Part shown: one piece after another, positions 34,904 to 49,998 of the stretch
Position numbering within the stretch: the stretch's first letter is position 1
Layout: each line of letters opens with the position of its first letter
Assembly (NCBI GenBank): GCA_009377645.1
Contig: WHTQ01000003.1
Coordinates: 21,528 to 85,527 of the forward strand
Reading direction: 5' to 3'
From: Micromonosporaceae bacterium
GTDB taxonomy: Bacteria; Actinomycetota; Actinomycetes; Mycobacteriales; Micromonosporaceae
Length of the DNA stretch: 64,000 bases
The notes under the pieces: generated by a model
The model's input: the letters and a program-made list of their open reading frames with translations, nothing else
The model's database searches: none
Told to the model about the DNA's origin: nothing
Program-made: the position numbers and the translations under genes

Positions 34904-35148
34904 GAACTGCCTCCCTCTCCGCCGCCTAGCTCCGCAGGGGCGTCTATCCGGATGTGATTGAGGATTTCTTCCAGGGTCGACTCGGGGAGCCGGGCCAGGG
35001 CCTCGACCTGCAGCGGGTCGAGGAACAGCTCCAAACCCGCCGGCTCGCAGAACAGCCGCAGCCGGTCGCCGTTGCCGTCGCTATCCACGCTGGCCCTGAT
35101 CACCGCGAACTCGCCGCGTAGGTGGAGCACTGGCTGATAGGTACTCAT
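34900..35148 (-). CDS. Hypothetical 82-aa protein
   Basis: It lies between the dioxygenase beta subunit and the hydrolase, with a 4-nt overlap with the hydrolase start. I recognise no family. Confidence 0.5.
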   Translation of the reverse strand: MSTYQPVLHLRGEFAVIRASVDSDGNGDRLRLFCEPAGLELFLDPLQVEALARLPESTLEEILNHIRIDAPAELGGGEGGSS

Positions 35149-35154
35149 AGGTCC

Positions 35155-35664: not shown

Positions 35665-36917
35665 AAGCTCCTATCGGATGGATAGGCGAGGACCCGACGG
35701 GCCCACTCGCGGTAGATGGCCCGCTGTGGCGTCTCGTCGGAGGGCAGCGCCATCAGCTCGCCGTCGCCGAGGTCCTCCTCGCGGCCGAGCCCGCGGGACA
35801 TCACCATCCAGCGCAGCGAGCGGGAGCGCGAGCCGGTCTGGACCGCCGCGAACGTCTCCAAGTCGTCCGGTCCGATGAAGCCGGTGGTGCCGAGCCGCCG
35901 CTGCAGGTCGGACAGCCGCTCCTCGTTGATCGCCGGGTCGACCCCTCGCAGCTCCATGAAGTAGGACCGTACCTCGGTGCGGTCCACCGACCGGGGCAGG
36001 ATGGTGCGGATGTTGCCATCCATCAGATAGACGTTCGGGAAGATAAAGATATGCCGGCGTAGCAATATCTGCTGGACTCGTTCCTCGTCGTGCCGCTCGC
36101 GCAGCGCCCGCTGGTAGGAGGCCAGCAGCTTCGGGTTGAGCCGGGCGACCGGCCCGCCCTCCAGGATCGCGTGCCCCTCCTTGAACCCACGTACTTTGCC
36201 GACCTTCAGCATTTCGTTGCTCAGCGCGCGGGAGCGGACGCCGAAGTGGTCGAGGGTCTCAAACGCCGACTGGTGCAGTACCGCCGGATGGTAGCCGTCC
36301 GCCCCGTTCTCGGCCTGCATCTTCCAGTTGCCGCCGTACTCGAAGCGGTGCGGTGGGAGCAGCCGGCCCTCGGGCTCCGGGGACATGTCGGCCCACAGGT
36401 CGACGTATCTACGCACGGTGCCGAGGTGCTCGATCAGAGTCGGCGCCTGGGGATCGAACGTGCAGAAGATCAAACCGCGGTACGACTCGACCTTCGCGGC
36501 CCGGAGCAGGCCGTCGACGTTGCGCAGCGCGCCGTCGAGGTATGCGCCGACCCGCTGGGCGACGCCGATCAGGTCGCCGTTGTTGCGGTAGGCCCAACCG
36601 TGGTACGGACAGCGAAACGCCTTCGAGTTGCCCCGTTCCTCGCGGCAGACCACCGCGGCTCGATGTCGGCACGCGTTGACCAGCACGTTGATCTTGCCCG
36701 TGTCGTCGCGAGAGACGATCACTGGCTCCTCGCCGACATGCGTGGTGAGGTAGTCGCCCGGCTTGGTCAGCTCGGACTCATGTGCGACGTACACCCAGGA
36801 GGTCCGGAAGACTTGCTCCATCTCTCGGCGGTACAGCTCCTGGTCCGTGTAGACCCGGGGGCTGATCCAGAAGTCGGTGCCGTTGTCGACGACGAAGTCG
36901 GTGACATTCATGAGCAC
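35661..36917 (-). CDS. Rieske aromatic ring-hydroxylating dioxygenase alpha subunit
   Basis: Rieske motif CRHRAAVVC...CPYHGW and mononuclear iron motif ENGADGYHPAVLH. Confidence 0.9.
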   Translation of the reverse strand: MLMNVTDFVVDNGTDFWISPRVYTDQELYRREMEQVFRTSWVYVAHESELTKPGDYLTTHVGEEPVIVSRDDTGKINVLVNACRHRAAVVCREERGNSKAFRCPYHGWAYRNNGDLIGVAQRVGAYLDGALRNVDGLLRAAKVESYRGLIFCTFDPQAPTLIEHLGTVRRYVDLWADMSPEPEGRLLPPHRFEYGGNWKMQAENGADGYHPAVLHQSAFETLDHFGVRSRALSNEMLKVGKVRGFKEGHAILEGGPVARLNPKLLASYQRALRERHDEERVQQILLRRHIFIFPNVYLMDGNIRTILPRSVDRTEVRSYFMELRGVDPAINEERLSDLQRRLGTTGFIGPDDLETFAAVQTGSRSRSLRWMVMSRGLGREEDLGDGELMALPSDETPQRAIYREWARRVLAYPSDRSL

Positions 36918-37031
36918 AGAACCTCTCCACTAGCCAGCCGTACGGCCGCCTACCGCTGACCTCATCATCGCGACTGGCGCGGTTCGAGATCCATGAAAAG
37001 TCCCGGCCACCGGAACGTTGTGCTGCCGATT

Positions 37032-38231
37032 TCAGTCGCCGTCCGCCGGCGGCAGCATCCCGGCTGCCCAGACTTTGGCGGCTTCGAAGCTGCTGCCCTG
37101 GGTGAGCAGCCGGCGGCCCATGGCCAGCACCCGCGGCGCCGAGATCGACAGCACGCCCTCCAGCTCGTCGTGGCCGAAGATCACCACCGCGCGCCGGCCG
37201 CGTTCCACGATATGGTGCCGGGCACGCGGGTCGCAGTGCCCCACGAACTGCACCTTCGCATCGAACAGATCCGACCAGAAGTACGGCGGCGTCGCCCACC
37301 CCGCGTCTGAGCCTCCGAGCATCGCATCGGCCACGACCGTGCCCTGGTCGCGGGCCGCCTGCCACTGCTCGACGCGGTCATGCCGCCCGGTTACCGCGTT
37401 GGGCCAGCGGGCGACGTCGCCGACCGCCCAAACCCCCGGCAGCGAGGCCCGGCCGGCCGCGTCACAGACCACGCCGTTGTCGACCATCACTCCGGACCCG
37501 CGCAACCACTCGGTGTTCGGGGCCGCACCGATACCCACCACCACCGCGTCCGCCGGGATGTCGGTGCCGTCGTCGAGCCGTACCCCCTCGACTGTCGTGT
37601 CACCGGTCAGCGACGTGACACTGGCCCCGCACCGCAGCTCGACTCCTTCCCGCAGGTGGGACCGCACGCAGAGCCGGCCCACGTCGGCGCCGAGCACCCG
37701 GGCCAGCGGCGACTCCGCACGCTCCAGGACGATCACCTGCCAGCCCCGGCGGGCCGCCGCAGCGGACACCTCCAGGCCGATGAAGCCGGCACCCAGCACG
37801 ACCATCCGCCCCGGTGAGCCGAGCGCCGCCGCCAGCCGGACCGCGTCGTCAAGCTCACGGAGCTGGTACAGGCCCGGCCGGCCGACGACCCCGGGCAGCG
37901 TCCGGGCCCGGGCGCCGGTGGCGATCACCACCTGGTCGGCCTCGACCCGTTCGCCGCCGGCCACGACGGCGAACGGGTCGGTCCTCAGCTCGGTGGCGGC
38001 CACGCCGAGGCGAAGTTCCACTTCTTGCTCCGCGTACCACTCGGCCGGCTTGAGCAGGGTGGGGGTCGCGTCGGCCAGAAACTGCTTGGACAGCGGCGGC
38101 CGGTCGTAGGGCAGGTGGATCTCCGCCCCGATCAGCGTGATCCGCTGCCGGCCGCCGCGTCGGCGCAGCCGGTCGATGAATGACACTGCGCCCAGTGAGG
38201 CCCCGACCACCACGATCCGTTCGGGGCTCAC
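37032..38231 (-). CDS. FAD-dependent ferredoxin-NAD(P)+ reductase (glutathione-reductase type)
   Basis: IVVVGASLGA (FAD), VVLGAGFIGLEV (NAD), and VWAVGDV. Confidence 0.85.
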   Translation of the reverse strand: MSPERIVVVGASLGAVSFIDRLRRRGGRQRITLIGAEIHLPYDRPPLSKQFLADATPTLLKPAEWYAEQEVELRLGVAATELRTDPFAVVAGGERVEADQVVIATGARARTLPGVVGRPGLYQLRELDDAVRLAAALGSPGRMVVLGAGFIGLEVSAAAARRGWQVIVLERAESPLARVLGADVGRLCVRSHLREGVELRCGASVTSLTGDTTVEGVRLDDGTDIPADAVVVGIGAAPNTEWLRGSGVMVDNGVVCDAAGRASLPGVWAVGDVARWPNAVTGRHDRVEQWQAARDQGTVVADAMLGGSDAGWATPPYFWSDLFDAKVQFVGHCDPRARHHIVERGRRAVVIFGHDELEGVLSISAPRVLAMGRRLLTQGSSFEAAKVWAAGMLPPADGD

Positions 38232-38234: not shown

Positions 38235-38462
38235 CTAGCCGTCGCGCTGGACGAGCCCATCGGCTCCGGCCCCGTCGACAATCACGGCTTCGACCGGGCA
38301 GGAGCGCGCGGCCTCCTCCACCGCCGACTCATATTCGGGGCCCGGGTTCTCGAGGACCACGAACGCCTTGCCGGTCACCTCGTCGACGTCCAGCACCTCG
38401 GGCGCGGCGACCACGCAGTTGGCGTAGCCGGTACACTTCCCGACGTCGATCGACACCCTCAT
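38235..38462 (-). CDS. Small single-cluster ferredoxin (CxxYxxC...CP, 3Fe-4S/4Fe-4S type)
   Basis: 75 aa, MRVSIDVGKCTGYANCVVAAP...SCPVEAV. Its ATG overlaps the UbiD stop (ATGA). The rest of ORF 38235..39395 is an artefact. Confidence 0.8.
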   Translation of the reverse strand: MRVSIDVGKCTGYANCVVAAPEVLDVDEVTGKAFVVLENPGPEYESAVEEAARSCPVEAVIVDGAGADGLVQRDG

Positions 38463-39958
38463 TTCGTCTTGACCCCCTCCGACTCGTGCAGCACGGCGCC
38501 GCCAGCCGCCTGGCCGTCTTCGAAGGCGTAGACCTGGGGGACGGGGCCGTCGAAGCCGAGAGTGGACCAGCGGGCGCTGACCTTGTCGTACATCTCTCGG
38601 GTCATCCGCGTGCGCTTGGAGAAGACCGGCAGGTGCCGGTGCTCCATGCATGCGTTGATGAGCGCTTTCGACCCGTACGGCCGCTCCTCGGGCGGGTTCT
38701 GCGTCGGGTCGAGCCAGCTCGACCAGGTCTGGCGCAGGATGTCGATGTCCTCGACCGGGTTGCAGCGGGTGCCCATCGCCCATTGGACCTGGACATTGTC
38801 GGTGGGGTCCACGTCGTGGTCGACCACCACGAACCACTTGGCGAAGTACGCCCCGCTGGCCGACTGAGCGGCCAGTGCCAGCACCTGTGCGGCGTGACCG
38901 GCGTACTGCTGTTCGATGCTGACTACGACCAGGCCGCGGGATGGGCTGGGGTGCCAGACGCCCTTGACTCCGGGGACGCCCATGGTTTCCAGATCGTTCC
39001 AGACGCCGGCCGACCGGGCGATCGCGCTGTAGGTGAGCGGGTTGTCCGACATCAGCGCGTTCATGATGATCGGCCGGGTCCGGCGCATGATCGAGGTCAC
39101 CTCGATCACCGGACAGGTCGCCTCGGGGCGCCCGTAGTAGCCGGTGAACTCGCCGAACGGGCCCTCCATCTCGGTGGCGTCCGGGTGGATCACGCCCTCG
39201 ACGACCAGCTCGGCGTGTGCCGGGATCAGCAGCTCGGTGGTGGCGCCTTCGACCAGCTCGACCGGACGCCCGCGCAGGCCGCCCATGTACTCGTACTCGG
39301 AGACGTCGTGCGGCAGGGCTAGCGTGCTCAGCATGAAGATGCTTGGCTCGGCGCCCATCACGGCGGCCACCTGCAGCGACTCGCCGCGCTTCCAAGCCCG
39401 GGCGATGTGCAGCCGGGCGTCCTTGCCGGGCGAGAGATACAGCCCGATCCGCTTGGAGTCGTGCACCATCATTCGGTACGTGCCGCAGTTGAGGTAGCCG
39501 GAGTCGGGGTCGCGGGTGATCACCGCGTCGGCCGTGCCGAGGTAGCGCCCGCCGTCCAACGGCCAGTGCTTGGGTGCCGGCAGCTCCAGGAGGTTGATGT
39601 CATCGCCGGTGAGCACGTTGGCATAGATGGGCGCGGCGGTGGGCTCGATGGTGACCGGGGGGATCCGGTTGCGTAGCCGGTTCTTCACCTCGCGGATGAT
39701 GTCGAGCACCGACCCGGCCGGGTCTGCCCCGGCGGTGAGCGCCACCCGCGACGGGCTCTCCAGCGCGTTCCACAACAGCTGTCCCGCCTCGGCCGGGTAG
39801 CCCTTGACGTTCTCGAACAGGACGGCCGGGTTTCCCTTGGTTTTGCCGGCCAGGTAGCTGATCGCGCCTGCCTCCTGGTCCCAGTCGACCGGCTCGCTCA
39901 CCCGCACGAGCTCGCCCATGGCCTCGACCTTGTCGAGCCAATCACGAAGGCTGTCCAT
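38459..39958 (-). CDS. UbiD family (prFMN-dependent) decarboxylase, copy 1
   Basis: 499 aa of UbiD fold, with MDSLRDWLDKVEAMGELVRV... and the central FGEFTGYY-type motif. Confidence 0.9.
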   Translation of the reverse strand: MDSLRDWLDKVEAMGELVRVSEPVDWDQEAGAISYLAGKTKGNPAVLFENVKGYPAEAGQLLWNALESPSRVALTAGADPAGSVLDIIREVKNRLRNRIPPVTIEPTAAPIYANVLTGDDINLLELPAPKHWPLDGGRYLGTADAVITRDPDSGYLNCGTYRMMVHDSKRIGLYLSPGKDARLHIARAWKRGESLQVAAVMGAEPSIFMLSTLALPHDVSEYEYMGGLRGRPVELVEGATTELLIPAHAELVVEGVIHPDATEMEGPFGEFTGYYGRPEATCPVIEVTSIMRRTRPIIMNALMSDNPLTYSAIARSAGVWNDLETMGVPGVKGVWHPSPSRGLVVVSIEQQYAGHAAQVLALAAQSASGAYFAKWFVVVDHDVDPTDNVQVQWAMGTRCNPVEDIDILRQTWSSWLDPTQNPPEERPYGSKALINACMEHRHLPVFSKRTRMTREMYDKVSARWSTLGFDGPVPQVYAFEDGQAAGGAVLHESEGVKTK

Positions 39959-39981
39959 TGTGCCGTCCTCTCGTGAAGGGG

Positions 39982-40584
39982 TCAGTAGCCGAGCGGGCCG
40001 AGGACCCTGATGCCGTGTTCGTTCTGCAGGTACCGGGCGAACCGGTACTTGATCTCGGGACCTTCATACCTTGCGAGCGGCTTCGGACCACCGGGTCCCT
40101 TCCGCTCGACCTCCATCACAGTGAACGCGAAGCCGGGTGTGGCGATGAGCTCCTTAGCCGCCTCGAGCTCGTCCAGTGAGGACACGTTGACGGCGCGCTC
40201 GACGCCTGCCGCCTTCGCCACCGCGGCGTAGTCGGTCGCGGCGGCGTTTGGCAGGTTGGGGCCGTCGATGGTGCCATAGACCCGGTTGGAGGTGAGGAAG
40301 TACTTCAGGTTGGGCCGGCTTAGTTCGGCCATCGTGAGGATCGAGCCAAAGCTCAGGGTCAGTGAGCCGTCCCCGTCGATCACCCACACAGTGTGCTGCG
40401 GGCACGCCACCGCCAGACCCAGGCCGAACGAGGCGGCCAGCCCCATCGTGTGCATATGGAACGACTGGTCGTCGGCTGGTCCCCAGATCCGGTGCCATTC
40501 CTGGGTGGACGTGCCCAGGCCGAGCACCACCAGCTCGTCACTGTGTTGTCGGCTGAGCCACCCGAGCGCCGCGTCGGCTCTCAC
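39982..40584 (-). CDS. TPP-dependent decarboxylase, beta subunit (sulfopyruvate/phosphonopyruvate decarboxylase-like, PP-binding domain)
   Basis: TPP motif VIDGDGSLTLSFGSILTMAE...NRVYG. The GTG overlaps the alpha-subunit stop (GTGA). Confidence 0.8.
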   Translation of the reverse strand: MRADAALGWLSRQHSDELVVLGLGTSTQEWHRIWGPADDQSFHMHTMGLAASFGLGLAVACPQHTVWVIDGDGSLTLSFGSILTMAELSRPNLKYFLTSNRVYGTIDGPNLPNAAATDYAAVAKAAGVERAVNVSSLDELEAAKELIATPGFAFTVMEVERKGPGGPKPLARYEGPEIKYRFARYLQNEHGIRVLGPLGY

Positions 40585-41090
40585 GTCGGGCCTCCCTTGG
40601 TGATGAGCAGGTGCTTGGCGAGGAAGGTGACGAACGGGCGCTTCAGCAGCAGCGCGCGGGTGTAGGCGGCCGGCAGCTGGTCCAGCTGCGCGGGGTCGCT
40701 GATGGTGATGTGCGGGATGCCCAGCGCATCCAGGTACGGCTTGCCGACCAGCCCTTGCCCTACCTGGTACGTCAGCTGGTCGTCGATGCCACCCCGCAGG
40801 CTGGCCACGACCAGCAGCGGGATCTGATGGGCGAGGTTCAGCGTCACGAGCTCGTGCGCGCTGGCCAGCAGCCCGGCAATGCCCATCGCCGCGGCGGCCC
40901 GGGCACCGCCGAACCAGGCACCGGCACAGACCCCGATCGCCTCGCTCTCCCTGGCGACGGGGATGTAGGTGATCTCGGAGTCGTTGTCAATCAGCGTGAG
41001 CAGCGGGACAATCCAGTCGTCGGGCAAACCTGACACCACGGTGATGCCGGCCGCCTTGAGCTGCTCGTACACCCGGACCGAATCCTCCAC
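40581..41090 (-). CDS. TPP-dependent decarboxylase, alpha subunit (PYR domain)
   Basis: ITVVSGLPDDW...ITYIPVARESEAIGVCAGAWFGG, with the catalytic Glu context. I chose the GTG at 41090 with RBS GAAAGGA. Confidence 0.75.
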   Translation of the reverse strand: MEDSVRVYEQLKAAGITVVSGLPDDWIVPLLTLIDNDSEITYIPVARESEAIGVCAGAWFGGARAAAAMGIAGLLASAHELVTLNLAHQIPLLVVASLRGGIDDQLTYQVGQGLVGKPYLDALGIPHITISDPAQLDQLPAAYTRALLLKRPFVTFLAKHLLITKGGPT

Positions 41091-41110
41091 GGCCCATCCT
41101 TTCCGGTTGT

Positions 41111-41710
41111 TCACAGCTGTCCCCAGAGCAGCCCGTCGGCGACCCGCAGGCCGGCGTAGGTCTGGAGAACCCAGACGACCAGTCCGACGCCCGCCGCCAT
41201 GAGAGCGGCTGGCCGCCACCCCTCCCGCCGACCCAACGTCATGTAGGCGAACGTCAGCACGACACCCGCTACCAGGAAACCGAGGAGGTAGAGGGCGCCC
41301 GTGTAGGCCGCCAGCCAGACGACCATGATCAAGGTCGCCTTGAGGTCGAAGCTGGGCTCGTTACCCAGGCCGGTGGCCCGTGCCTGGGCCTGGGTCACCA
41401 CCACGGGCGCCGGCGCGGTCGTCTCACCCCCTTCGGGCGACTTCTCTGGGGTCGGGTTCTCTGGGATCGGGCCAGGTGCCGCCGTTGTCGCGGACGGCGG
41501 CCCGGGCTCAGGCGCGGGGTCGAGTGCCGGCCTTGGCCGCCGGACCAGAACGTTGACTATCTCCGCCGCCGCAAAGGTAGCCAGCGCGAGGGTGGCGATC
41601 ATCGGGAAGAGCCGGGTGCGGAACCCCCAGTCCATGCTCATGTTGAGGCCGATCAGGGCCAGCGCGAGCAGGAAACCTGGGAAGACTAGGTCTCGGAGTC
41701 GCTCCTTCAC
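41111..41710 (-). CDS. tctB: TctB-like small permease of a tripartite tricarboxylate transporter, with a Pro-rich loop insertion
   Basis: Four TM segments flank ~70 aa of PALDPAPEPGPPSATTAAPGPIPENPTPEKSPEGGETTAPAP. The GTG at 41710 overlaps the tctA stop. Confidence 0.6.
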   Translation of the reverse strand: MKERLRDLVFPGFLLALALIGLNMSMDWGFRTRLFPMIATLALATFAAAEIVNVLVRRPRPALDPAPEPGPPSATTAAPGPIPENPTPEKSPEGGETTAPAPVVVTQAQARATGLGNEPSFDLKATLIMVVWLAAYTGALYLLGFLVAGVVLTFAYMTLGRREGWRPAALMAAGVGLVVWVLQTYAGLRVADGLLWGQL

Positions 41711-43230
41711 ACATGCTCCTTTCCGGAGGACACTGCTGCGGCAACCGGGCGGCGGGCCGACCGGCGGCGGTGCCAGAGGCCCCGCAGGGGAGGGACAGTG
41801 GCCGAAAGCACCGACACCGCGATGATCACCAAGACGAGCGGGTGGGTCAGCCAGGACATGTCGTAGCGGGACACCGAGAGGAACAGGTAGTTCTCGGCGA
41901 GCCCACCCAGCACCAAGCCGAGCACGAGCGGCGCCCGGGGCCAGTCCAGCTTGACCATCGCCAGGCCGAGCAGGCCGAAGGCCAGCATCACGAAGACGCT
42001 GGACATCGAGGTTCGCTCCGAGTAGGCGCCGATGAAGATGAGCAGCAGCAGCGGTGGCAGGATCAGGCCACTGCGCACGGTGGTGATCTTGGCAATCGGC
42101 TTGACCGCAGCGAGCGCCACCGGGACTGCGATCACGTTGGCGATCACGATCATCCAGACGAACGACATCGTCAGGTCGAGATGGGTGGTGAGCATCTCCG
42201 CACCCGGCTGGATGCCCTGGATGAGGAAGGCGCCGAGCAGGATCGCCATCGTAAGGCTGCCCGGGATGCCAAAGGCGACCGTCGGAACGAGCCCACCGCC
42301 CTCCTTGGAGTTGTTCACCGTGGCTGGGGCGATCACGCCCTCGATCGCGCCCTTGCCGAACCGCGACGGGTCCTTCGACGTCTGCGCGGCGTGCCCATAC
42401 GCCACCCACTGCGCAACCGAGCCGCCCAGGCCGGGTAGGACTCCGACGAAGACGCCGATGAGGCTGGCCCTGATCAGCAACCAGCGGTGGCGGATGACGT
42501 CAAGAATGCCCTCCTTGACTCCGGAGACCTTGTCCGTGGCCTGGCTAGCGATGCCGCCTCGGCGCCTGGCAAGGTCGATCACCTCGGGCAAGCCGAACAG
42601 GCCGATCGCGACTGCGACCAGACCGACTCCGTCCCACAGCTGCAGGCTGCCGAACGTGAACCGCGGGATGCCCGACTGCGGATCCAAACCCACGGTAGAC
42701 AGAAGAAGGCCAAATGCCGCGGCGGCAAGGCTCCGCAGCATCTTGCCGCGGCCGAGCGTGGCGATGAAGGTCAGCCCCAGAATTATCAGCGCGAAGAACT
42801 CAGGTGACCCGAACGACAACACCAATGGACGGACCACCGGGATCGCCGCCACCAGAGCGACGGCGCCGATCACCGCACCGAGCAGGGATGCGAACAGGGC
42901 GGCGCCGAGCGCCCGCCCGGCCTGACCCTGCTTACTAAGGGCATGGCCATCCAGCACCAGCGCGGCCGATGTGGACTCGCCTGGTATTCCGAACAGGATC
43001 GACGTCATGTCACCCGTGGTAGCGGTGACCGAGAGCATGCCAAGCAGGAACGCGAACGCGTGGGTCGGTTCCATGTCGAACGTGAACGGGAGCATGAGCG
43101 CCAGGGTTACGGCGCCGCCGAGGCCCGGCAGGATGCCCACGGTGAACCCGACCGCCATCCCGACAAGCAGGAAGCCGAAAGCCGGCCAGCCAAGTGTCGC
43201 TACCAGCCCGTCAAGGAGTGACTGCAGCAT
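41707..43230 (-). CDS. tctA: TctA family large permease
   Basis: 507 aa, polytopic, with GILPGLGGAVTLALMLPFTF and VLPGLGGSVAQW repeats. Confidence 0.9.
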   Translation of the reverse strand: MLQSLLDGLVATLGWPAFGFLLVGMAVGFTVGILPGLGGAVTLALMLPFTFDMEPTHAFAFLLGMLSVTATTGDMTSILFGIPGESTSAALVLDGHALSKQGQAGRALGAALFASLLGAVIGAVALVAAIPVVRPLVLSFGSPEFFALIILGLTFIATLGRGKMLRSLAAAAFGLLLSTVGLDPQSGIPRFTFGSLQLWDGVGLVAVAIGLFGLPEVIDLARRRGGIASQATDKVSGVKEGILDVIRHRWLLIRASLIGVFVGVLPGLGGSVAQWVAYGHAAQTSKDPSRFGKGAIEGVIAPATVNNSKEGGGLVPTVAFGIPGSLTMAILLGAFLIQGIQPGAEMLTTHLDLTMSFVWMIVIANVIAVPVALAAVKPIAKITTVRSGLILPPLLLLIFIGAYSERTSMSSVFVMLAFGLLGLAMVKLDWPRAPLVLGLVLGGLAENYLFLSVSRYDMSWLTHPLVLVIIAVSVLSATVPPLRGLWHRRRSARRPVAAAVSSGKEHV

Positions 43231-43311
43231 GGAGAACGTTCCGTCCTTTCAGGTCGGGCGAGCGGGGTGGCACCGGGCGGCGGTCCGGTGCCCACCCACT
43301 CATCCAGCCGG

Positions 43312-44394
43312 CTAGCTCTCCCCGCCGATCAGAGTCTTGAGCTGGTCGCTGACGTCTGTCGGCATACTGAACAGATCGTCGAAGCCCTCCTTCACCTGCG
43401 CCCCGGTGAGCGGGTCGATGAGCAGACTGGCCTGCTCGCTCTCGGCGAGGAAGTCCGGGTCCTGCATCGTGTCGTCGAACGCTTGCTGCATCGCCGCGAC
43501 CCGTTCCTCCGGCACGTCCGGCGGCAAGAAGTAGATCCGGGTCAGACCACGCGGTGTGCCGGTGCCAAAGAACATCAGGTCCTCTTGCACCTTGTCCTGG
43601 GTGAACTCGTAGACTGTCGGCACATCCGGGATGATCTCCTCGATGGTCGGATCTGGCTCGCGGTCGCTCTGGACGAGAGTCGTCCACTCACCGGACTCGA
43701 ACTTGTCGCGGGTCGTGGCAAGCTCGGTGTGCCAGCTGGTCACGAAGCCGTCGATCTCGCCGGACTCGATAGCGAGCTGGATCGCTGAGCTGCCGTCGTA
43801 CCCCGGGACGATCCTGATGTTGGCCCCGAGGACCTCCTTCATCAGGACGGCCGGGTCGGTCTGCATCGAACCGGGCGACTGCACGCCAACAACCAGTTCC
43901 GGACCGCCCGGGGTCAGCAGTTCCTGGAAGCTCTTCGCCGCGGCGTCGGTGCGCGCGACCAGCACTGTGTTGCCTGGCGGGTCAGGCTGGCCGAGGTAGT
44001 TGTACTTGGTCATGTCGAACTGCACCCGTTCCGAGCCGAACAGCTGCTGGATTGCGAGCCCGCCGGTCGCGTTCCCGATGACCGTGCCGTCCTTCGGCGC
44101 CTGGTTGTAGACGTAGTTCATGGCGACCATGTGACCGGCACCCGGCATGTTCTCGACGATGACGTTCGGCTGGCCGGGGATGTGCTCACGGATGTGCTTG
44201 GCAATCATTCGGGCATAGGTGTCGAAGCCACCGCCGGGGGCGGACGCCACGATCAGCCGCACGGTGTTGCCTTCGTAGAATTCCTCCGCGGAGCCCGAGC
44301 TGTCGCCGCCTCCGTCCTCGGAGCTGTTGCCACACGCCGCGACGGCCAGCAATGCGAGCACTCCCGCGAAGGCGCCTAGTTTGCGTACGATCAT
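43312..44394 (-). CDS. tctC: TctC/Bug family extracytoplasmic solute receptor (lipoprotein)
   Basis: Lipobox LLAVAAC and the Bug motif IVASAPGGGFDTYARMIAKHI. Confidence 0.9.
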   Translation of the reverse strand: MIVRKLGAFAGVLALLAVAACGNSSEDGGGDSSGSAEEFYEGNTVRLIVASAPGGGFDTYARMIAKHIREHIPGQPNVIVENMPGAGHMVAMNYVYNQAPKDGTVIGNATGGLAIQQLFGSERVQFDMTKYNYLGQPDPPGNTVLVARTDAAAKSFQELLTPGGPELVVGVQSPGSMQTDPAVLMKEVLGANIRIVPGYDGSSAIQLAIESGEIDGFVTSWHTELATTRDKFESGEWTTLVQSDREPDPTIEEIIPDVPTVYEFTQDKVQEDLMFFGTGTPRGLTRIYFLPPDVPEERVAAMQQAFDDTMQDPDFLAESEQASLLIDPLTGAQVKEGFDDLFSMPTDVSDQLKTLIGGES

Positions 44395-44812
44395 CTGAGT
44401 TCCTCGTTCTATCGCTCTTCAATGGAACATCTGGGCTTGGACCCGTAGGCTCCGGCGCCCTCCACCAACCGGCTGCCGAGAGATTGGCAACGACACCGCT
44501 CCCATGGCGTCGACTCCGGCGTCGGGCCATGCACAAGGGTCCCGACCTGTCCGATCGGTATTCGTCTCTAGGTACGGGGCCCATAGGGCATACTCCGCTT
44601 TGACGGGCCGCCTGGACGGGCGGGCCGCAGCGTCGCATATGCTGCCATCAGGCTAGGACCGCGCTTCGCTATACATGAAGAGCGGCGTACCGATCAGTGG
44701 AACTAAAAGCAGCCCGCCTGCGCCGGCCGGATCCCGCTAACTGAGAATGCCCGGTGATCGACCAGGCTGTGACCAACAGCGCCCGCAGGACCGGTAGGAG
44801 ACACGCAAGAGC

Positions 44813-45451
44813 TCACTCCTGCGGTGTCCCGATCTCTTGTGCGCCGTCCTGACGGAGGCCTCCCCACTGCCTGACCGGAACGTCGGCCCGCAGGCCGAGC
44901 ATCGCGAGCGCCCTGGCCACGGTGTGCCGGACGATGTCGTCGAGCGTCTCGGGCTTGGTGTAGAAAGCCGGCACCGGCGGCGCGATCACCGCGCCAGCCT
45001 CCGCGGCCGAAGCCATCAGCCGCAGATGGCCAAGGTGCAGCGGGGTCTCTCGGACCAGGAGCACCAGCGGACGGCGTTCCTTGAGGGTCACGTCGGCGGC
45101 CCGGCTGATCAGGTTGTCCGAGTACGAGTGGGCGATCGCTGAGAGTGTCTTGATCGAGCAGGGCGCGACCAGCATTCCCCGGACCGGGAAGGAGCCTGAG
45201 GCGATCGATGCGCCGATATTGTTGACGCTGTGCACGACATCCGCGTGCGCGGCCACCACCCGCCGGTCCAGGCCGGTCTCGTGTTTGAGCGTAACCAGGG
45301 CCGACGCCGAAGCCACCAGGTGCACCTCGATCCGGTCCAGCTCGCGTAGCAGCTGCAGCGCCCGCAGCCCATAGATCGCCCCGCTGGCACCGGTTATCGC
45401 CACGATAACCCGCTCCGGCGCGGGCCGTCCGTTGCTGGGCACCGCGCTCAT
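44813..45451 (-). CDS. ubiX: Flavin prenyltransferase UbiX (prFMN synthase)
   Basis: VAITGASGAIYGLRAL..., PCSIKTLSAIAHSYSDNLISRAADV. Its ATG overlaps the UbiD copy-2 stop (ATGA). Confidence 0.9.
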   Translation of the reverse strand: MSAVPSNGRPAPERVIVAITGASGAIYGLRALQLLRELDRIEVHLVASASALVTLKHETGLDRRVVAAHADVVHSVNNIGASIASGSFPVRGMLVAPCSIKTLSAIAHSYSDNLISRAADVTLKERRPLVLLVRETPLHLGHLRLMASAAEAGAVIAPPVPAFYTKPETLDDIVRHTVARALAMLGLRADVPVRQWGGLRQDGAQEIGTPQE

Positions 45452-46941
45452 CGGGACGCATTCTCTGCGCCCGGGTGGCCTCCGCCTGGCCCGACCTGCC
45501 GTTGGCCGGTACCGAAGCCCCGCAACAGCTCATCCCACCGCTGTGCCACCCGCAGCCGCGCCTGCGGGGGGAACACGTTGCTGTGCGGAAAGTCCTCCCG
45601 CCAGTGGAATGGCCGGCACGCATCCACCAGCAGCCGCCCCATCGTATGGTCGCCGGCCGCCAGCTGCTGCGGCGACAGCCGCGGGTCGAGGGTGGTGGTC
45701 CATGCGCCCCGAATCACGTCGATCGACGTGGCCGGGTCAGCGCGGGTACACATCGCCCAGACCACCTGCTCCAAACTGGTCACGTCGATGTCGTCGTCGA
45801 CCGCCACGTAGTAGCGGTACATGCTGGCGCCACTGCGAAAACCTGACGCGGCGAGCAGGGCCTGCTTGGCATGGCCGGCGTACCGCTGCTTGACGCTGAC
45901 CACGATCATCAGCGTCTTGCAGAACCCCCACACCCCGGTCACGTCGGTGATCCCGGAGCGGTCCAGGTGGTCCCAGAGCTCAAGCGTGAACGACGGGATC
46001 GCCACACTGTCGCTGTCGCCGAGCGGGCGCAGCGGCGGCGTGCCGAGCAAGATCGGCCGTTCCCGGTGATAGATCGTGTCCACGGTCATCACCGGCTCGT
46101 TCCCTTCATGCGAGTAGTAGCCGGGCCACTCGCCGAACGGCCCCTCGTACGCGGTGTCCAGCTCCGGCGACGGGATTCGCCCCTCCAGCACGATCTCGGC
46201 GTGCGCGGGCACCGGAAGGCCACTCGCCGGCAGGTTCACCACCTCTAGCGGGCTGCCCCGGAAGGCGCCGGCCAGCTCGTACTCGGAGGTGCCGAAGGGG
46301 GCTGCCATCGCGGCCGTCATCCAGGTCGCCGGGTCGCAGCCCAGTACCACCGCGATCGGGGCTTCCCGGCCGGCGGCCCAATGCTTCTCCAGGATCATCC
46401 GGCCGTGCTTGGCGGCCAGGATCCACAGGCTCATCCGGTTGCGCCCTTGGATCATGCCTCGGTAGACGCCGACATTGACCCAGCCCCGATCCGGATCCCG
46501 CAGCACGACCATGTCGGCGGTGCCGATGTACCGGCCGCCGTCCCGCTCATGCCACTTTGGCGTCGGAAACGCGTCCAGGTCGACCTCGTCGCCTACCTGC
46601 CGGCTAGCGAGGACGGGACCGTCGGAGGCCACCGCGGGAGGCAGCGGCCCGCTGAGCTGCCGACGCCGTACTCGCCACTGGGCCAGCATGTCCAGCGGGT
46701 GGGCGTCGAGCGGCAGATCGAAGGCAACGCCGAACCGCCGGGTAGTGCGCAGCGGGTTGGCCGCGACCCGGTGCCCCTCCGGGAGGCCATCGAACCGGTC
46801 GAATACCAGCATCGGGCCGCGCGCCTCGGCGGCCAGCTCGGTCAGCACGCCGACCTCCTCGTCCAGCGAGGCGCCGTCGACGAACGCCGCCTCACCGACC
46901 TCGGCGCAGGCGCCGATGAACGCTTCAAGCGAGTCCTGCAT
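45448..46941 (-). CDS. UbiD family (prFMN-dependent) decarboxylase, copy 2
   Basis: UbiD fold, with FGEWPGYY. I prefer the start at MQDSLEAF (46941, RBS GGGGGAGA). The Met at 46974, which overlaps the MFS stop, is the alternative. Confidence 0.85.
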   Translation of the reverse strand: MQDSLEAFIGACAEVGEAAFVDGASLDEEVGVLTELAAEARGPMLVFDRFDGLPEGHRVAANPLRTTRRFGVAFDLPLDAHPLDMLAQWRVRRRQLSGPLPPAVASDGPVLASRQVGDEVDLDAFPTPKWHERDGGRYIGTADMVVLRDPDRGWVNVGVYRGMIQGRNRMSLWILAAKHGRMILEKHWAAGREAPIAVVLGCDPATWMTAAMAAPFGTSEYELAGAFRGSPLEVVNLPASGLPVPAHAEIVLEGRIPSPELDTAYEGPFGEWPGYYSHEGNEPVMTVDTIYHRERPILLGTPPLRPLGDSDSVAIPSFTLELWDHLDRSGITDVTGVWGFCKTLMIVVSVKQRYAGHAKQALLAASGFRSGASMYRYYVAVDDDIDVTSLEQVVWAMCTRADPATSIDVIRGAWTTTLDPRLSPQQLAAGDHTMGRLLVDACRPFHWREDFPHSNVFPPQARLRVAQRWDELLRGFGTGQRQVGPGGGHPGAENASR

Positions 46942-46970: not shown

Positions 46971-48299
46971 TCATGATCGCTTTCCGGTCCGCGGATCGGC
47001 TCGGACCCGGCGGCCGGACCGCTCGCGGGTGGCTCTCGCCACCGCCAAGGCCGCCGCTGCCACGACCACCCCTGTGCCGACCAGCGCCCAGGTAAGCGTG
47101 GTGACGCTGGCCAACGTGGAGTCGACCAGGGCGGCCAGCGGACGGGAGCCGAGGAAGAAGACGCCCCACAGTGCCATCACCCGCCCGCGCAGGTGCTCCG
47201 GCACATCGAGCTGCATCGAGGTGGTCAGCGCGGTGATCGCGAAGAAGTAGCCGACACCACCGACGGCCAGAGCGGCGCTGCCGGTCAGCAGCTCCGGCGC
47301 AACGCCGAGCACACCGATCATCAGTGCAAGCGTGGTCAGGCCAAGCACGCCAGTAGCGCGGTAGCCGATCCGGACGTTGACCCGGCGGACGAACAGCATC
47401 GCCAGCACCGCCCCGCCGCCGTACGCGCCGGCGAGGATGCCGACCGCGAGCTCAACGTTGTCGACCTTGAGCGGACCGCCGCCGGCCATCAGATCGTGGG
47501 CGAGCAGTGGCACCAGCGTGATCACCGGGTCACTGCCGTACCCGGCGGCGGCGATGCCGACCAGCATCGCGAGCATCCGCTTGTGCGCCCAGACGTAGCG
47601 GATGCCGGCGGTGAAGCCGCGGTGGGCGACCCCCGCCCTGGCACCGGCGCCATGCGGCCCGCTGTCCGGCTCGGCCCGGAGCGGCTTGATCACCGCCAGC
47701 GCGGCGACGAACAGCAGGTAGGAGGCGGCGACTGCCACGAAGACAGCGATCGGCCCCAGCGAAAGCAGGAGCAGGCCGCTCAGTGCGGGTCCGAGGGTCC
47801 GCCCGAGGTTGAACGTCACCGTGTTGAGCGCCACGGCCTGACCCAGGTCGGCGGTGGGCACCAGGGCGGCGACCAACGCGTGCCGGGCCGGGTCGGTGAC
47901 CGCCAGCGCTATGCCGAAGCCGAGCGACATCAGCAGTACCGGCCATGGGTTGGTGATCCGGTCCTGGCCGACCAGTGCTCCCCATGCCGCCAACCCCGAA
48001 ACCGCCACCCCAGCGCAGGCCAGCGCAACCATCATCAGCTTACGTCGATCGAACCGGTCGGCCAGCGCGCCCCCCACGGGGGCGAGCACGACCGGGGCGG
48101 TGAACTGCATGATGGTGACCAGCCCGACGTAGAAGGCGGATCCGGTGATCTGGAAGATCAGCACGACTGCGCCGACGTTGTAGGCCCAGACGCCGGTGTT
48201 CGAGACGACGTTGCCCCAGAAGTACGGCCCGAAGTTCCGGTCAAGCAGCAGCGCCCAGGAGCTACGCGACCCGCTGACCGTGCCCACCAACCGACCCAC
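46971..48299 (-). CDS. MFS transporter (MFS_3/EntS-like)
   Basis: About 12 TM helices, with LLDRNFGPYFWGNVVSNTGVW typical of this subfamily. Start uncertain (GTG 48299, TTG 48290 or GTG 48287). Confidence 0.75.
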   Translation of the reverse strand: MGRLVGTVSGSRSSWALLLDRNFGPYFWGNVVSNTGVWAYNVGAVVLIFQITGSAFYVGLVTIMQFTAPVVLAPVGGALADRFDRRKLMMVALACAGVAVSGLAAWGALVGQDRITNPWPVLLMSLGFGIALAVTDPARHALVAALVPTADLGQAVALNTVTFNLGRTLGPALSGLLLLSLGPIAVFVAVAASYLLFVAALAVIKPLRAEPDSGPHGAGARAGVAHRGFTAGIRYVWAHKRMLAMLVGIAAAGYGSDPVITLVPLLAHDLMAGGGPLKVDNVELAVGILAGAYGGGAVLAMLFVRRVNVRIGYRATGVLGLTTLALMIGVLGVAPELLTGSAALAVGGVGYFFAITALTTSMQLDVPEHLRGRVMALWGVFFLGSRPLAALVDSTLASVTTLTWALVGTGVVVAAAALAVARATRERSGRRVRADPRTGKRS

Positions 48300-48304
48300 C
48301 CACC

Positions 48305-49929: not shown

Positions 49930-49998
49930 GGCTTCCTCCCGAAGCGTTGAAGGGTCGAGCGTCCGCCGGGCTGGCCGCGCCGGACGGGCGGCGCGGAC

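What the first reader, a model, noticed from the sequence alone, without database searches (positions are those of the whole stretch)
38459..46941. Two divergent UbiD decarboxylases served by a single UbiX inside one operon
Seen:
- UbiD copy 1 (38459..39958) is coupled to the ferredoxin/dioxygenase module.
- UbiD copy 2 (45448..46941) is coupled to UbiX and follows an MFS transporter.
- Their N-termini are alignable (MDSLRDWLDKVEAMGELVRV versus MQDSLEAFIGACAEVGEAAFV), but the proteins are clearly not recent duplicates.
- There is no small VdcD/LpdD-like subunit next to either copy.

Known: UbiD enzymes need prFMN made by UbiX. Characterised members act on cinnamates, protocatechuate, gallate, vanillate, furan-2,5-dicarboxylate, pyrrole- and indole-carboxylates, phenazine-1-carboxylate and phthaloyl-CoA.

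Inference: either two sequential decarboxylations of a polycarboxylated ring, or one decarboxylase paired with one carboxylase.
Basis: partly seen in the sequence, partly recalled or inferred. Interest (0 to 1): 0.6.

Follow-up and report, generated by a model that had tools for sequence, protein, structure and literature searches.

The report
Two accessory UbiD decarboxylases, catabolic island

Summary
Two intact UbiD genes (38459-39958 and 45448-46941, 34% identical) and one UbiX (44813-45451) lie on the minus strand of a lower-GC catabolic island (~25.9-53.1 kb).

- **Not quinone enzymes.** Neither is a quinone-biosynthesis UbiD. The genome's menaquinone UbiD/MqnP/UbiX set sits on another contig.
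- **UbiD2.** Its stop overlaps the UbiX start (ATGA). Its clade is the well-supported sister of M. fortuitum PhdA (47% identity), the nearest characterised enzyme.
- **UbiD1.** Its stop overlaps a ferredoxin start. It belongs to a separate, strongly conserved, uncharacterised clade (54-59% identity across Binatia, Proteobacteria and Chloroflexota MAGs). That clade keeps the Glu-Arg-Glu network but has an invariant Asp where PhdA-like enzymes have the presumed Mn-binding His.
- **"One operon, one UbiX" is overstated.** A variable 418-nt gap separates the two units. The genome has a second UbiX. An 82%-identical metagenome relative has the same gene order without UbiX.
- **Not unusual.** Clusters with several UbiDs are common: the EbN1 plasmid has three, and Binatia genomes have 11-19 paralogs.

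Most likely these are two independent decarboxylation steps in (hetero)aromatic-acid catabolism, with substrates unknown. It is a new member of a known kind, of moderate interest.

The parts
45448..46941 (-). UbiD2: PhdA-sister-clade prFMN-dependent (de)carboxylase, 497 aa
   Evidence: Has all three UbiD Pfam domains. Best PDB hit is 7PDA (PhdA), 505.6 bits. 47% identical to PhdA. Its clade is sister to the PhdA clade with support 100. N156, R161, H179, E220, E266 and E271 are conserved.
44813..45451 (-). UbiX flavin prenyltransferase (PhdB-like), 212 aa; its ATG overlaps the UbiD2 stop
   Evidence: PF02441, E 4.5e-43. NF004685 scores 260.6 bits, above the 188 cut-off. ATGA overlap. 49% identical to the M. 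fortuitum-type PhdB region. Absent from the collinear relative L096. Present in ~98%-identical contigs from four runs.
44395..44812 (.). 418-nt non-coding gap between UbiX and tctC; probable boundary between transcription units or a regulatory region
   Evidence: No credible ORF. No consensus promoter or terminator. Close relatives carry 52-nt and 92-nt deletions here.
38459..39958 (-). UbiD1: member of a large uncharacterised UbiD clade, 499 aa
   Evidence: Has all three UbiD domains. PDB scores: PhdA 268 bits, HmfF 198, VdcC 186, E. coli UbiD 160. Clade supported at 100. Homologues at 54-59% identity in 80 GTDB MAG loci. The AF2 model has a UbiD fold, TM about 0.7. N157, R162, E221, E265 and E270 are kept; K179-D180 is invariant where PhdA has R-H.
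38235..38462 (-). 75-aa single-cluster ferredoxin; its ATG overlaps the UbiD1 stop
   Evidence: ORF frame and sequence. Fer4_13 E 1.1e-11, Fer4_15 E 9.6e-10. ATGA overlap.
39982..41219 (-). Split ComDE-like thiamine-diphosphate decarboxylase: PP-domain subunit 39982-40584 and PYR-domain subunit 40581-~41090 (longest ORF runs to 41219)
   Evidence: TPP_enzyme_C E 4e-16; TPP_enzyme_N E 7e-6 (26.2 bits, just under Pfam's 26.8 cut-off). The sulfopyruvate decarboxylase alpha/beta models are the best NCBIfam hits but fall below cut-off. No close homologue in 400 Actinomycetota.
41111..44394 (-). Tripartite tricarboxylate transporter: TctC 43312-44394, TctA 41707-43230, TctB ~41111-41703
   Evidence: Pfam TctC, TctA and TctB.
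46971..48533 (-). MFS_3 / EntS-like (efflux-type) transporter directly upstream of UbiD2; longest ORF given, real start probably near 48.3 kb
   Evidence: Pfam MFS_3 E 1e-49. NCBIfam H+ antiporter/EntS-type hits below cut-off.
33182..38231 (-). Ring-attack module: ferredoxin reductase 37032-38231, Rieske alpha 35661-36917, beta 35155-35664, 82-aa ORF 34900-35148, C-C hydrolase 34079-34903, LigB/MhpB-like extradiol dioxygenase 33182-34066
   Evidence: Pfam. Best PDB hits: HcaE 195 bits, MhpB 113 bits. HsaD/BphD models are the best NCBIfam hits for the hydrolase.
25934..33174 (-). Distal module: two MmgE/PrpD-like genes (31804-33174, 30422-31807), amidase 28963-30465, D-2-hydroxyacid dehydrogenase 28013-29059, 331-aa NMT1-like-fold ORF 26999-27994, IclR regulator 25934-26830
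   Evidence: Pfam. PrpD-like best PDB hits are IDS epimerase and IRG1. NCBIfam.
48305..53126 (-). Upstream genes of the UbiD2 unit: acetaldehyde dehydrogenase 52101-53126, 4-hydroxy-2-oxovalerate aldolase 51013-52104, SsuA/NMT1-type SBP 49999-51003, permease 49090-49929, ATPase 48305-49132
   Evidence: Pfam. TIGR03217 scores 477 bits (cut-off 286) and TIGR03215 scores 447 bits (cut-off 282).

Best explanation
The two genes encode independent prFMN-dependent, non-oxidative (de)carboxylases. They work at different points, or on different substrates, of a horizontally acquired aerobic pathway for (hetero)aromatic carboxylic acids.

**Unit 1** is aldolase, acetaldehyde dehydrogenase, an ABC importer, an MFS transporter, UbiD2 and UbiX. 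It ends in a PhdA/PhdB-like pair. UbiX makes prFMNH2. UbiD2 removes the carboxyl group from a polycyclic or N-heteroaromatic acid of the phenazine-1-carboxylate type.

**Unit 2** starts after the 418-nt gap. A TTT transporter imports an aromatic di- or tri-carboxylate or a keto-acid. The split ComDE-like ThDP enzyme and UbiD1 strip carboxyl groups. The translationally coupled ferredoxin, reductase and Rieske oxygenase then hydroxylate the ring. The MhpB-like extradiol dioxygenase and the C-C hydrolase open it. The PrpD-like proteins, amidase and dehydrogenase process the side product.

**Cofactor supply.** Both UbiDs draw prFMN from the cluster UbiX, with the menaquinone-locus UbiX as a possible back-up.

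**Shown:**
- Gene content, and the intact catalytic motifs.
- Clade placement of both enzymes.
- Coupling of UbiD2 to UbiX and of UbiD1 to the ferredoxin.
- Foreign origin of the island.

**Inferred:**
- Direction of the reaction (decarboxylation).
- Substrate classes.
- Order of the steps.
- That the two units are separately transcribed.
For: - **Family membership.** Both have the full UbiD architecture and pass only the generic TIGR00148 model.
- **Catalytic residues.** The Glu-Arg-Glu network defined for Fdc1 (PMC5818171) is conserved in both.
- **UbiD2 placement.** Its clade is sister to PhdA with support 100. PhdA identity was verified through the G111 protein, which scores 1101.7 bits over 479/479 residues against 7PDA.
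- **UbiD2-UbiX pairing.** They are ATGA-coupled, like phdA and phdB. Streptomyces plasmids carry stand-alone UbiD+UbiX pairs whose UbiD is 48-51% identical to UbiD2; in the trees the one included groups with PhdA (81% identical).
- **Shared genes with the phenazine locus.** The M. fortuitum-type locus shares Rieske alpha, Rieske beta and the 82-aa ORF in the same order, and also a reductase, a hydrolase, an IclR regulator, and an aldolase and acetaldehyde dehydrogenase at 69-71% identity.
- **Amidase parallel.** The amidase recalls the PCN-to-PCA amidase of that locus (PMC4626857).
- **UbiD1 coupling.** UbiD1 is ATGA-coupled to the ferredoxin.
- **Transporters.** TTT, MFS and ABC systems are all documented importers of aromatic dicarboxylates (PMC13040137).
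- **UbiD1-clade neighbours.** In Alphaproteobacteria these genes sit with TctC, IclR and UbiX.
- **Conserved arrangement.** An 82%-identical metagenome contig and ~98%-identical contigs from four studies have the same arrangement.
- **Foreign origin.** The island has lower GC. No close UbiD1, UbiD2 or ComDE homologues were found in 300-400 sampled relatives, apart from PhdA in one genome.
Against: - No substrate is identified for either enzyme. UbiD2 is only 47% identical to PhdA and lies in a sister clade, not the PhdA clade.
- Most other enzymes differ in type from the phenazine locus. The extradiol dioxygenase is LigB-type, not the type annotated there, and Rieske alpha is 32% identical.
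- The cluster has no cis-dihydrodiol dehydrogenase and no 2-oxopent-4-enoate hydratase, so the proposed ring-attack sequence is incomplete as encoded.
- The MFS is of an efflux-like type. That fits detoxification as well as uptake.
- UbiD1-clade genes in Binatia sit among housekeeping genes beside a class II aldolase-like gene. This argues that the clade's core function may not be xenobiotic catabolism.
- UbiD1 lacks the loop His that PhdA-type enzymes have at the presumed Mn site.
- No transcript data exist.
Confidence: 0.55

Rival explanations
1. Sequential decarboxylation of one polycarboxylated ring. For example, a TTT-imported dicarboxylate such as phenazine-1,6-dicarboxylate loses one carboxyl through UbiD1 and the second through the PhdA-like UbiD2.
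For: - UbiD2's nearest characterised relative is the phenazine-1-carboxylate decarboxylase.
- TTT systems carry aromatic dicarboxylates.
- Both genes are kept together in relatives at 82% and ~98% nucleotide identity.
- Tandem pairs of divergent UbiD genes recur elsewhere.
Against: - The genes are 5.5 kb apart in different modules, separated by a 418-nt gap.
- The presumed second-step enzyme is encoded upstream with an efflux-type MFS.
- Each clade mostly occurs without the other. UbiD1-clade loci share no other window genes. PhdA-type pairs stand alone on Streptomyces plasmids.
- No phenazine-specific gene is identifiable.
Confidence: 0.2
2. One decarboxylase plus one carboxylase. One copy would run in the carboxylating direction to activate an unsubstituted ring.
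For: - UbiD reactions are reversible in principle.
- The PpcB carboxylase subunit belongs to the same superclade.
Against: - The pathway is oxygenase-based, with a Rieske dioxygenase and an extradiol dioxygenase.
- Both score below the phenylphosphate carboxylase cut-offs (272 and 263 bits against 469).
- No PpcC/D/G-like, kinase or ATP-dependent partner genes lie in the cluster, in contrast with the Azoarcus ppc locus.
Confidence: 0.05
3. The two proteins form a heteromeric UbiD complex, as PpcA and PpcB do, with one catalytic and one structural or regulatory subunit.
For: Adjacent divergent UbiD pairs are frequent in other loci (L023, L026, L033, L055, L097-L101).
Against: - Here the genes are not adjacent.
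- Both keep full catalytic motifs.
- The UbiD1 clade occurs as a single copy in the Binatia-type context.
- PhdA is described as a hexamer and was studied without any second UbiD subunit (PMC10850782).
Confidence: 0.05
4. UbiD1 is catalytically altered or inactive because the presumed Mn-binding His is replaced. It would then act as a prFMN-independent or non-decarboxylase protein.
For: K179-D180 replaces the R/K-H of PhdA, UbiD2 and EbN1_RS22170, with no His at positions 178-180.
Against: - Asp is a competent Mn ligand.
- K-D and H184 are invariant in 20/20 clade members, mean column identity is 74%, and the Glu-Arg-Glu network is intact.
- UbiX lies within 10 kb in 14 of 80 clade loci.
- Alignment of this loop varies between clades: His aligns to 178 in E. 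coli UbiD and 179 in VdcC. The ligand assignment also rests on my recollection of Fdc1 N168/H191/E233.
Confidence: 0.1

Closest known systems
PhdA/PhdB(/PhdC) phenazine-1-carboxylate decarboxylase system of Mycolicibacterium fortuitum (PDB 7PDA; PMC4626857, PMC10850782, PMC13040415)
   Same: - UbiD2 gets its best PDB hit from PhdA (505.6 bits), and its clade is sister to PhdA's.
- UbiD and UbiX are co-transcribed.
- Both sit in a large aromatic catabolic locus with a Rieske oxygenase, a small 82-aa ORF, a hydrolase, an aldolase, an acetaldehyde dehydrogenase, an IclR regulator and an amidase.
   Different: - Identity is only 47%, and UbiD2 is in a sister clade dominated by Binatia, Deltaproteobacteria and Chloroflexi MAG proteins.
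- No phdC maturase gene lies between UbiD and UbiX, and none was found anywhere in the genome.
- The ring-cleavage enzyme is LigB-type.
- This cluster has a second UbiD, a TTT transporter and a ComDE-like enzyme, none of which I found in the M. fortuitum-type locus.
Aromatoleum aromaticum EbN1 plasmid 2 phthalate cluster (three UbiD genes, two UbiX)
   Same: - Several divergent UbiD paralogs and UbiX sit in one catabolic region with an IclR regulator.
- An SBP/ATPase/permease ABC transporter lies directly beside a UbiD (EBN1_RS22170) that is 38-39% identical to both window copies.
   Different: - It is an anaerobic CoA-dependent pathway, with CoA transferases and PCD-type UbiDs that score only ~50-58 bits against the window proteins.
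- It has no oxygenases.
HmfF/HmfG furan-2,5-dicarboxylate decarboxylase
   Same: - It is the second-best structural and sequence neighbour of UbiD1 (198 bits; Foldseek TM 0.69-0.80).
- It decarboxylates a heteroaromatic dicarboxylate in an aerobic catabolic pathway.
   Different: - Identity is about 32%, and UbiD1 lies in a different clade.
- HmfF has the loop His that UbiD1 lacks.
- No hmf oxidase or furoyl-CoA genes are present here.
VdcBCD / LpdBCD non-oxidative hydroxyarylic acid decarboxylases
   Same: - UbiD and UbiX chemistry.
- The UbiX scores 230 bits on the VdcB model.
   Different: - VdcC model scores are 280 and 234 bits against a cut-off of 650.
- There is no VdcD/LpdD small subunit.
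Ubiquinone UbiD and menaquinone MqnL-type decarboxylases
   Same: Same fold and cofactor.
   Different: - Both window copies score far below the equivalog cut-offs.
- They lie in a different, 100-supported part of the tree.
- The genome's true menaquinone copy is on contig C94 beside MqnP.

Membership tests
UbiD family (prFMN-dependent reversible decarboxylases) | Three-domain architecture UbiD_N / UbiD core / UbiD_C; generic TIGR00148 above cut-off | tested here: met
   Both copies have PF20695, PF01977 and PF20696. UbiD2's UbiD_N scores 23.4 bits, just under the 24.3 cut-off. TIGR00148 scores 285.2 and 264.0 bits, above the 244.85 cut-off. The UbiD1 AF2 model matches UbiD structures at TM ~0.7.
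UbiD family (prFMN-dependent reversible decarboxylases) | [quoted passage not shown] | tested here: met
   UbiD1 has R162, E265 and E270. UbiD2 has R161, E266 and E271. These align with E. coli R180/E285/D290 and PhdA R165/E270/E275.
UbiD family (prFMN-dependent reversible decarboxylases) | Mn2+/phosphate-binding Asn, His and Glu (Fdc1 N168/H191/E233; ligand identity from my own knowledge, not found in the papers searched) | tested here: inconclusive
   UbiD2 has N156, H179 and E220, all present. UbiD1 has N157 and E221, but the His column holds an invariant D180 (K-D in 20/20 clade members); the nearest His is H184. Alignment of this loop differs between clades.
Ubiquinone/menaquinone biosynthetic UbiD | Score above the equivalog cut-offs NF008175 (788) or TIGR03701 (495.9); placement in the clade with E. 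coli UbiD | tested here: not met
   UbiD1 scores 166.3 and 224.2 bits; UbiD2 scores 149.1 and 162.7 bits. The genome's C94 copy scores 619.7 bits on TIGR03701. E. coli UbiD and the C94 copy form a separate clade with support 100.
PhdA (phenazine-1-carboxylate decarboxylase) orthologue: UbiD2 | Falls within the PhdA clade; phdA-phdC-phdB operon; activity on phenazine-1-carboxylate | tested here: inconclusive
   UbiD2's clade is sister to PhdA plus the Streptomyces plasmid protein, not nested within them. Identity is 47%. UbiX is adjacent. PhdC was not found. Activity cannot be tested here.
VdcCD / LpdCD type | VdcC model above cut-off, and an adjacent small D subunit | tested here: not met
   NF041204 scores 280.5 and 233.9 bits against a cut-off of 650. 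The adjacent small ORFs are a ferredoxin or none. A VdcD query found nothing in the genome.
Phenylphosphate carboxylase alpha/beta | TIGR02724/TIGR02723 above cut-off; PpcC/D/G partners | tested here: not met
   Scores are 272 and 263 bits against 469, and 211 and 164 bits against 565. No partner genes lie in the cluster.
UbiX flavin prenyltransferase | NF004685/TIGR00421 above cut-off | tested here: met
   260.6 bits (cut-off 188) and 219.8 bits (cut-off 108.9).

The most novel reading that the evidence does not exclude
UbiD1 may represent a widespread, so far uncharacterised UbiD subfamily. Hundreds of species in Binatia, Proteobacteria, Chloroflexota and Acidobacteriota carry members at 54-59% identity across phyla. 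Its metal/prFMN site would be remodelled, with an invariant Lys-Asp in place of the loop His, and it would act on a substrate class not yet assigned to UbiD enzymes. In this actinomycete lineage it would have been recruited, together with a split ComDE-like ThDP decarboxylase and a TTT importer, into a new route. That route would strip two or three carboxyl groups from a polycarboxylated (hetero)aromatic compound before oxygenolytic ring opening.
Probability: 0.25. Interest if true: 0.6.

Novelty: new member of a known kind. Interest (0 to 1): 0.4.

Why it matters
UbiD enzymes are wanted as reversible (de)carboxylation catalysts, yet only a handful of clades have known substrates. This locus offers two untested clades in a context that can be read.

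- **UbiD2.** It is the closest outgroup of PhdA. Comparing the two could show which residues set specificity for polycyclic N-heteroaromatic acids.
- **UbiD1.** It comes from a very large, strongly conserved clade with an unusual metal-site loop. Its pairing with a ThDP decarboxylase and a TTT importer narrows the substrate search to imported aromatic polycarboxylates or keto-acids.

In itself, the co-occurrence of two UbiDs with one UbiX is ordinary.

Tried and rejected
- **The look-up of encoding contigs.** The contigs of the closest homologues (P0005-P0007, P0125-P0127) could not be read, so co-occurrence of the two clades in nearer relatives is untested beyond L096 and the laid runs.
- **Shared context for the UbiD1 clade.** I looked in 80 GTDB loci. 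None of the window's genes recur there except UbiX (14 loci), Tct components and generic ABC parts. Context therefore gave no substrate.
- **Other characterised UbiDs in the tree.** Sequences of HmfF, Fdc1, AroY, HudA, TtnD, InD and PCD could not be obtained as stored proteins. Their relation rests on PDB bit scores and Foldseek only.
- **Promoter/terminator scan of the 418-nt gap.** It found nothing, which is uninformative for this kind of organism.
- **Literature.** Searches for a characterised UbiD linked to TTT transporters, or for a UbiD family-wide clade map, found nothing relevant. The metal-ligand residues were not found in the papers searched.
- **Sequencing runs.** No RNA holder is listed. 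All holders are contigs with at most 0.49 of the words, and their names are coded, so no habitat or expression statement is made.
- **PhdC and VdcD queries.** They found nothing in the genome. These are short proteins and the genome is 95% complete, so this is weak evidence of absence.
- **Recent duplicates.** Rejected: the copies are 34% identical and sit in different clades.
- **Either copy as the quinone enzyme.** Rejected.
- **Unpublished genome.** One of the weak ComDE-like hits is in the unpublished genome G088. No claim here depends on it.

Full report
**What is there**

The window is about 70-76% GC. A stretch from about 25.9 to 53.1 kb has 66-70% GC and lower third-position GC. All its genes are on the minus strand. 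Read in the direction of transcription:

| Coordinates | Gene |
|---|---|
| 52101-53126 | acetaldehyde dehydrogenase |
| 51013-52104 | 4-hydroxy-2-oxovalerate aldolase |
| 49999-51003 | SsuA/NMT1-type binding protein |
| 49090-49929 | ABC permease |
| 48305-49132 | ABC ATPase |
| 46971-48533 | MFS_3-type transporter |
| 45448-46941 | UbiD2 |
| 44813-45451 | UbiX |
| 44395-44812 | 418-nt gap |
| 43312-44394 | TctC |
| 41707-43230 | TctA |
| ~41111-41703 | TctB |
| 39982-41090 | split ComDE-like ThDP enzyme |
| 38459-39958 | UbiD1 |
| 38235-38462 | 75-aa Fer4_13 ferredoxin |
| 37032-38231 | ferredoxin reductase |
| 35155-36917 | Rieske alpha and beta |
| 34900-35148 | 82-aa ORF |
| 34079-34903 | C-C hydrolase |
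| 33182-34066 | LigB-type extradiol dioxygenase |
| 30422-33174 | two MmgE/PrpD-like genes |
| 28963-30465 | amidase |
| 28013-29059 | D-2-hydroxyacid dehydrogenase |
| 26999-27994 | 331-aa ORF with a faint NMT1 resemblance |
| 25934-26830 | IclR regulator |

**Checking the observation**

- Both UbiD ORFs are intact and full-length, and each carries all three UbiD domains.
- They are 34% identical over 488 residues, and the alignment starts at residue 2/3.
- The UbiD2 stop overlaps the UbiX start (cccgATGAgcg). The UbiD1 stop overlaps the ferredoxin start (gaaATGAggg).
- No small VdcD-type gene flanks either copy. Pantoea VdcD and the M. fortuitum PhdC candidate find nothing in the 95%-complete genome.

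Two points of wording do not hold.

- **"Single UbiX".** The genome has a third UbiD and further flavoprotein genes. The copy on contig C94 scores 619.7 bits on the menaquinone decarboxylase model (cut-off 495.9). It is followed by MqnP and a UbiX-type gene. The cluster UbiX is therefore not the cell's only source of prFMN.
- **"One operon".** The 418-nt gap between UbiX and tctC has no credible ORF. It is the most variable part of the region in near relatives, which carry 52-nt and 92-nt deletions there. One operon is not demonstrated.

**Are they quinone enzymes, and are they catalytically intact?**

- Both pass only the generic UbiD model. They fall far below the cut-offs for ubiquinone UbiD, menaquinone decarboxylase, VdcC, phenylphosphate carboxylase and BagN/FevL.
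- In maximum-likelihood trees, E. coli UbiD and the genome's own C94 copy form a separate clade with support 100.
- An alignment with PhdA, E. coli UbiD, VdcC, PpcB and EbN1 proteins shows the Asn-x-Gly-x-Tyr-Arg motif, the SEYE Glu and the EGPFGE motif in both. This includes the Glu-Arg-Glu/Asp network shown to be essential in Fdc1 (PMC5818171).
- UbiD2 also has His179 where PhdA has His183.
- UbiD1 has Lys179-Asp180 there, invariant in 20 of 20 clade members. It has no His at 178-180, and the nearest is an invariant His184.
- Equating this His with a Mn ligand rests on my memory of Fdc1 (N168/H191/E233). The loop also aligns differently in E. coli UbiD and VdcC. I therefore treat this as an open, clade-specific feature and not as loss of function.
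- An AlphaFold model of UbiD1 (pLDDT 74, pTM 0.79) matches VdcC, HmfF, PhdA and other UbiD structures at TM about 0.7.

**Placing UbiD2**

- Its best solved relative is 7PDA at 505.6 bits, against 173 bits for the next. 7PDA is phenazine-1-carboxylate decarboxylase PhdA of M. fortuitum (PMC10850782).
- A genome of the same order (G111) encodes a 479-aa protein that scores 1101.7 bits over the full length of 7PDA. That gave me PhdA as a stored sequence. UbiD2 is 47% identical to it.
- The large protein database holds many closer relatives: 89% on a metagenome contig, 76-77%, then hundreds at 56-64% from Binatia, Deltaproteobacteria and Chloroflexi MAGs.
- In the tree these form a 25-member clade with UbiD2 (support 99). 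That clade is sister, with support 100, to PhdA plus a Streptomyces plasmid protein.
- PhdA is therefore the nearest characterised enzyme but not a strict orthologue.
- The M. fortuitum operon contains phdC, a prFMN maturase (PMC13040415). The window has no such gene.
- Streptomyces and Kitasatospora linear plasmids carry UbiD2-like (48-51%) plus UbiX as stand-alone two-gene modules. This fits a self-contained decarboxylation or detoxification unit.

**Placing UbiD1**

- Its PDB scores are PhdA 268 bits, HmfF 198, VdcC 186, E. coli UbiD 160, TtnD 159, Fdc about 145, HudA 139 and PCD 58.
- Its own clade (support 100) is large. A scan of one genome per species returned 315 loci. The best 80 are all 54-59% identical and all come from MAGs of Binatia, Delta-, Alpha-, Beta- and Gammaproteobacteria, Chloroflexota, Acidobacteriota and Verrucomicrobiia.
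- Among 400 sampled Actinomycetota the best match is 40%.
- Contexts differ from the window:
  - In Binatia and Deltaproteobacteria the gene follows an LpxL-like acyltransferase and a class II aldolase/adducin-like gene, amid housekeeping genes.
  - In Alphaproteobacteria it sits with a small PNPOx-like flavoprotein, UbiX, IclR, a second divergent UbiD, TctC, an amidohydrolase and a CoA ligase.
- None of the 80 loci has the ComDE-like pair, the Rieske system or the LigB gene.

**How usual is a cluster with several UbiDs?**

- The A. aromaticum EbN1 plasmid 2 phthalate region has three UbiD and two UbiX genes. One of those UbiDs (38-39% identical to both window copies) lies directly after an SBP/ATPase/permease set.
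- The Azoarcus ppc locus has PpcA, PpcB, another UbiD and UbiX.
- Tandem divergent UbiD pairs occur in at least nine of the fetched loci.
- Four Binatia and Thermodesulfobacteriota MAG genomes carry 11-19 UbiD paralogs each, and an alphaproteobacterial MAG carries 3. One Binatia genome has four within 36 kb, next to a hydrolase, a LigB-type dioxygenase, a Rieske protein and an aldolase.
- Two UbiDs sharing one UbiX is therefore not unusual.

**Relatives of the whole island**

- A 9.5-kb metagenome contig (L096, about 82% nucleotide identity) is collinear from the MFS gene to the reductase. Its UbiD2 is 89% and its UbiD1 90% identical. It lacks the roughly 800 bp that hold UbiX.
- Contigs from four public runs in four studies, about 97-98% identical, bridge 38000-46256 including UbiX.
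- The pair of UbiDs is thus stably linked in this lineage, while the cluster UbiX comes and goes. That is consistent with a back-up prFMN supply.
- In 301 genomes of the same order, only the M. fortuitum-like genome has a strong UbiD2 match. The ComDE-like subunit has only partial matches of 40% or less in the phylum sample.
- Together with the GC dip, this points to horizontal acquisition.

**What the surrounding enzymes say**

- Rieske alpha is most like HcaE, and like benzoate and anthranilate dioxygenase models (195 bits to 8K0A).
- The extradiol enzyme is MhpB-like. The hydrolase is HsaD/BphD-like.
- The aldolase and acetaldehyde dehydrogenase pass their equivalog models.
- This gives an hca/mhp-like meta-cleavage skeleton. 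The cluster has no cis-dihydrodiol dehydrogenase and no hydratase.
- The PrpD-like proteins resemble iminodisuccinate epimerase and IRG1-type decarboxylases.
- The M. fortuitum-type phenazine locus shares Rieske alpha (32%), Rieske beta and an 82-aa ORF (35% over 57 residues) in the same order. It also shares a reductase (40%), a hydrolase (31%), IclR (39%), and the aldolase and dehydrogenase (69-71%). That locus also uses an amidase to convert phenazine-1-carboxamide to the acid (PMC4626857).
- TTT, MFS and ABC systems are all documented importers of aromatic dicarboxylates (PMC13040137).

**Conclusion**

The best reading is two independent prFMN-dependent decarboxylation steps in an acquired (hetero)aromatic-acid catabolic island. 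One is a PhdA/PhdB-like unit. The other is a UbiD1 step, embedded with a TTT importer and a ThDP decarboxylase, that feeds a Rieske and meta-cleavage route.

Sequential decarboxylation of one polycarboxylated ring remains possible. A carboxylase role, an obligate heteromer or an inactive copy are unlikely. The substrates cannot be named from sequence.

The finding is real but ordinary in kind. Its value lies in two untested UbiD clades, and in the unusual metal-site loop and gene partners of UbiD1.

This limited the analysis of context in the nearest relatives.

Noticed in passing
window 44703-45505 versus L096 2829-2905: The UbiX gene is an insertion/deletion difference between this island and an 82%-identical, otherwise collinear metagenome contig. 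The ~98% relatives keep it. The UbiD2 C-terminus also differs at this junction.
   Followed up: partly
window 34900-35148; L094 14812-14982: The orphan 82-aa ORF after Rieske beta has a homologue (35% over 57 aa) in the same position after a Rieske beta gene in the M. fortuitum-type phenazine-degradation locus. It may be a conserved oxygenase accessory protein. Neither Pfam nor NCBIfam has a family for it.
   Followed up: partly
L012, L017, L018, L021, L028, L030 and others (38 of 80 loci): In Binatia- and Deltaproteobacteria-type genomes, the UbiD1-clade gene is almost always preceded by a 254-aa class II aldolase/adducin-like gene and an LpxL-like acyltransferase, amid housekeeping genes (IleRS, LspA, GlnA, PII, Amt). 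This is a conserved, unexplained pairing.
   Followed up: partly
L026, L033, L055, L041 (Alphaproteobacteria MAG loci): A 160-aa PNPOx-like split-barrel flavoprotein sits next to UbiX upstream of a UbiD pair. PhdC, the known prFMN maturase, is described as a distant member of the HpaC-like flavin reductases, so this small flavoprotein could be an analogous maturation helper. Not tested.
   Followed up: no
G691-G694 (genomes of L015, L022, L029, L040): Binatia and Thermodesulfobacteriota MAG genomes hold 11-19 UbiD paralogs each. Several matches contain single in-frame TGA or TAG codons, which were not examined.
   Followed up: no
L104 (A. aromaticum EbN1 plasmid 2) 7911-9425: The anaerobic phthalate cluster contains a third UbiD (EBN1_RS22170) that is not of the phthaloyl-CoA decarboxylase type. 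It lies directly after an ABC importer. It belongs to the same superclade as both window copies.
   Followed up: partly
window 26999-27994: A 331-aa ORF at the end of the cluster has only a faint NMT1/THI5 resemblance (E 0.17), while a bona fide NMT1-type binding protein lies at 49999-51003.
   Followed up: partly
window 25061-25918: A uracil-DNA glycosylase superfamily gene sits just outside the island boundary.
   Followed up: no
window 53553-54239: A Pyridox_ox_2 (PNPOx-like) gene lies on the opposite strand immediately beyond the island edge. Its host-like GC3 (0.93) suggests it is probably unrelated to the cluster.
   Followed up: no
window 25900-53200: The whole cluster has lower GC (66-70% against 72-77%) and lower GC3 than its flanks. 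It lacks close homologues in sampled relatives, consistent with horizontal acquisition.
   Followed up: partly
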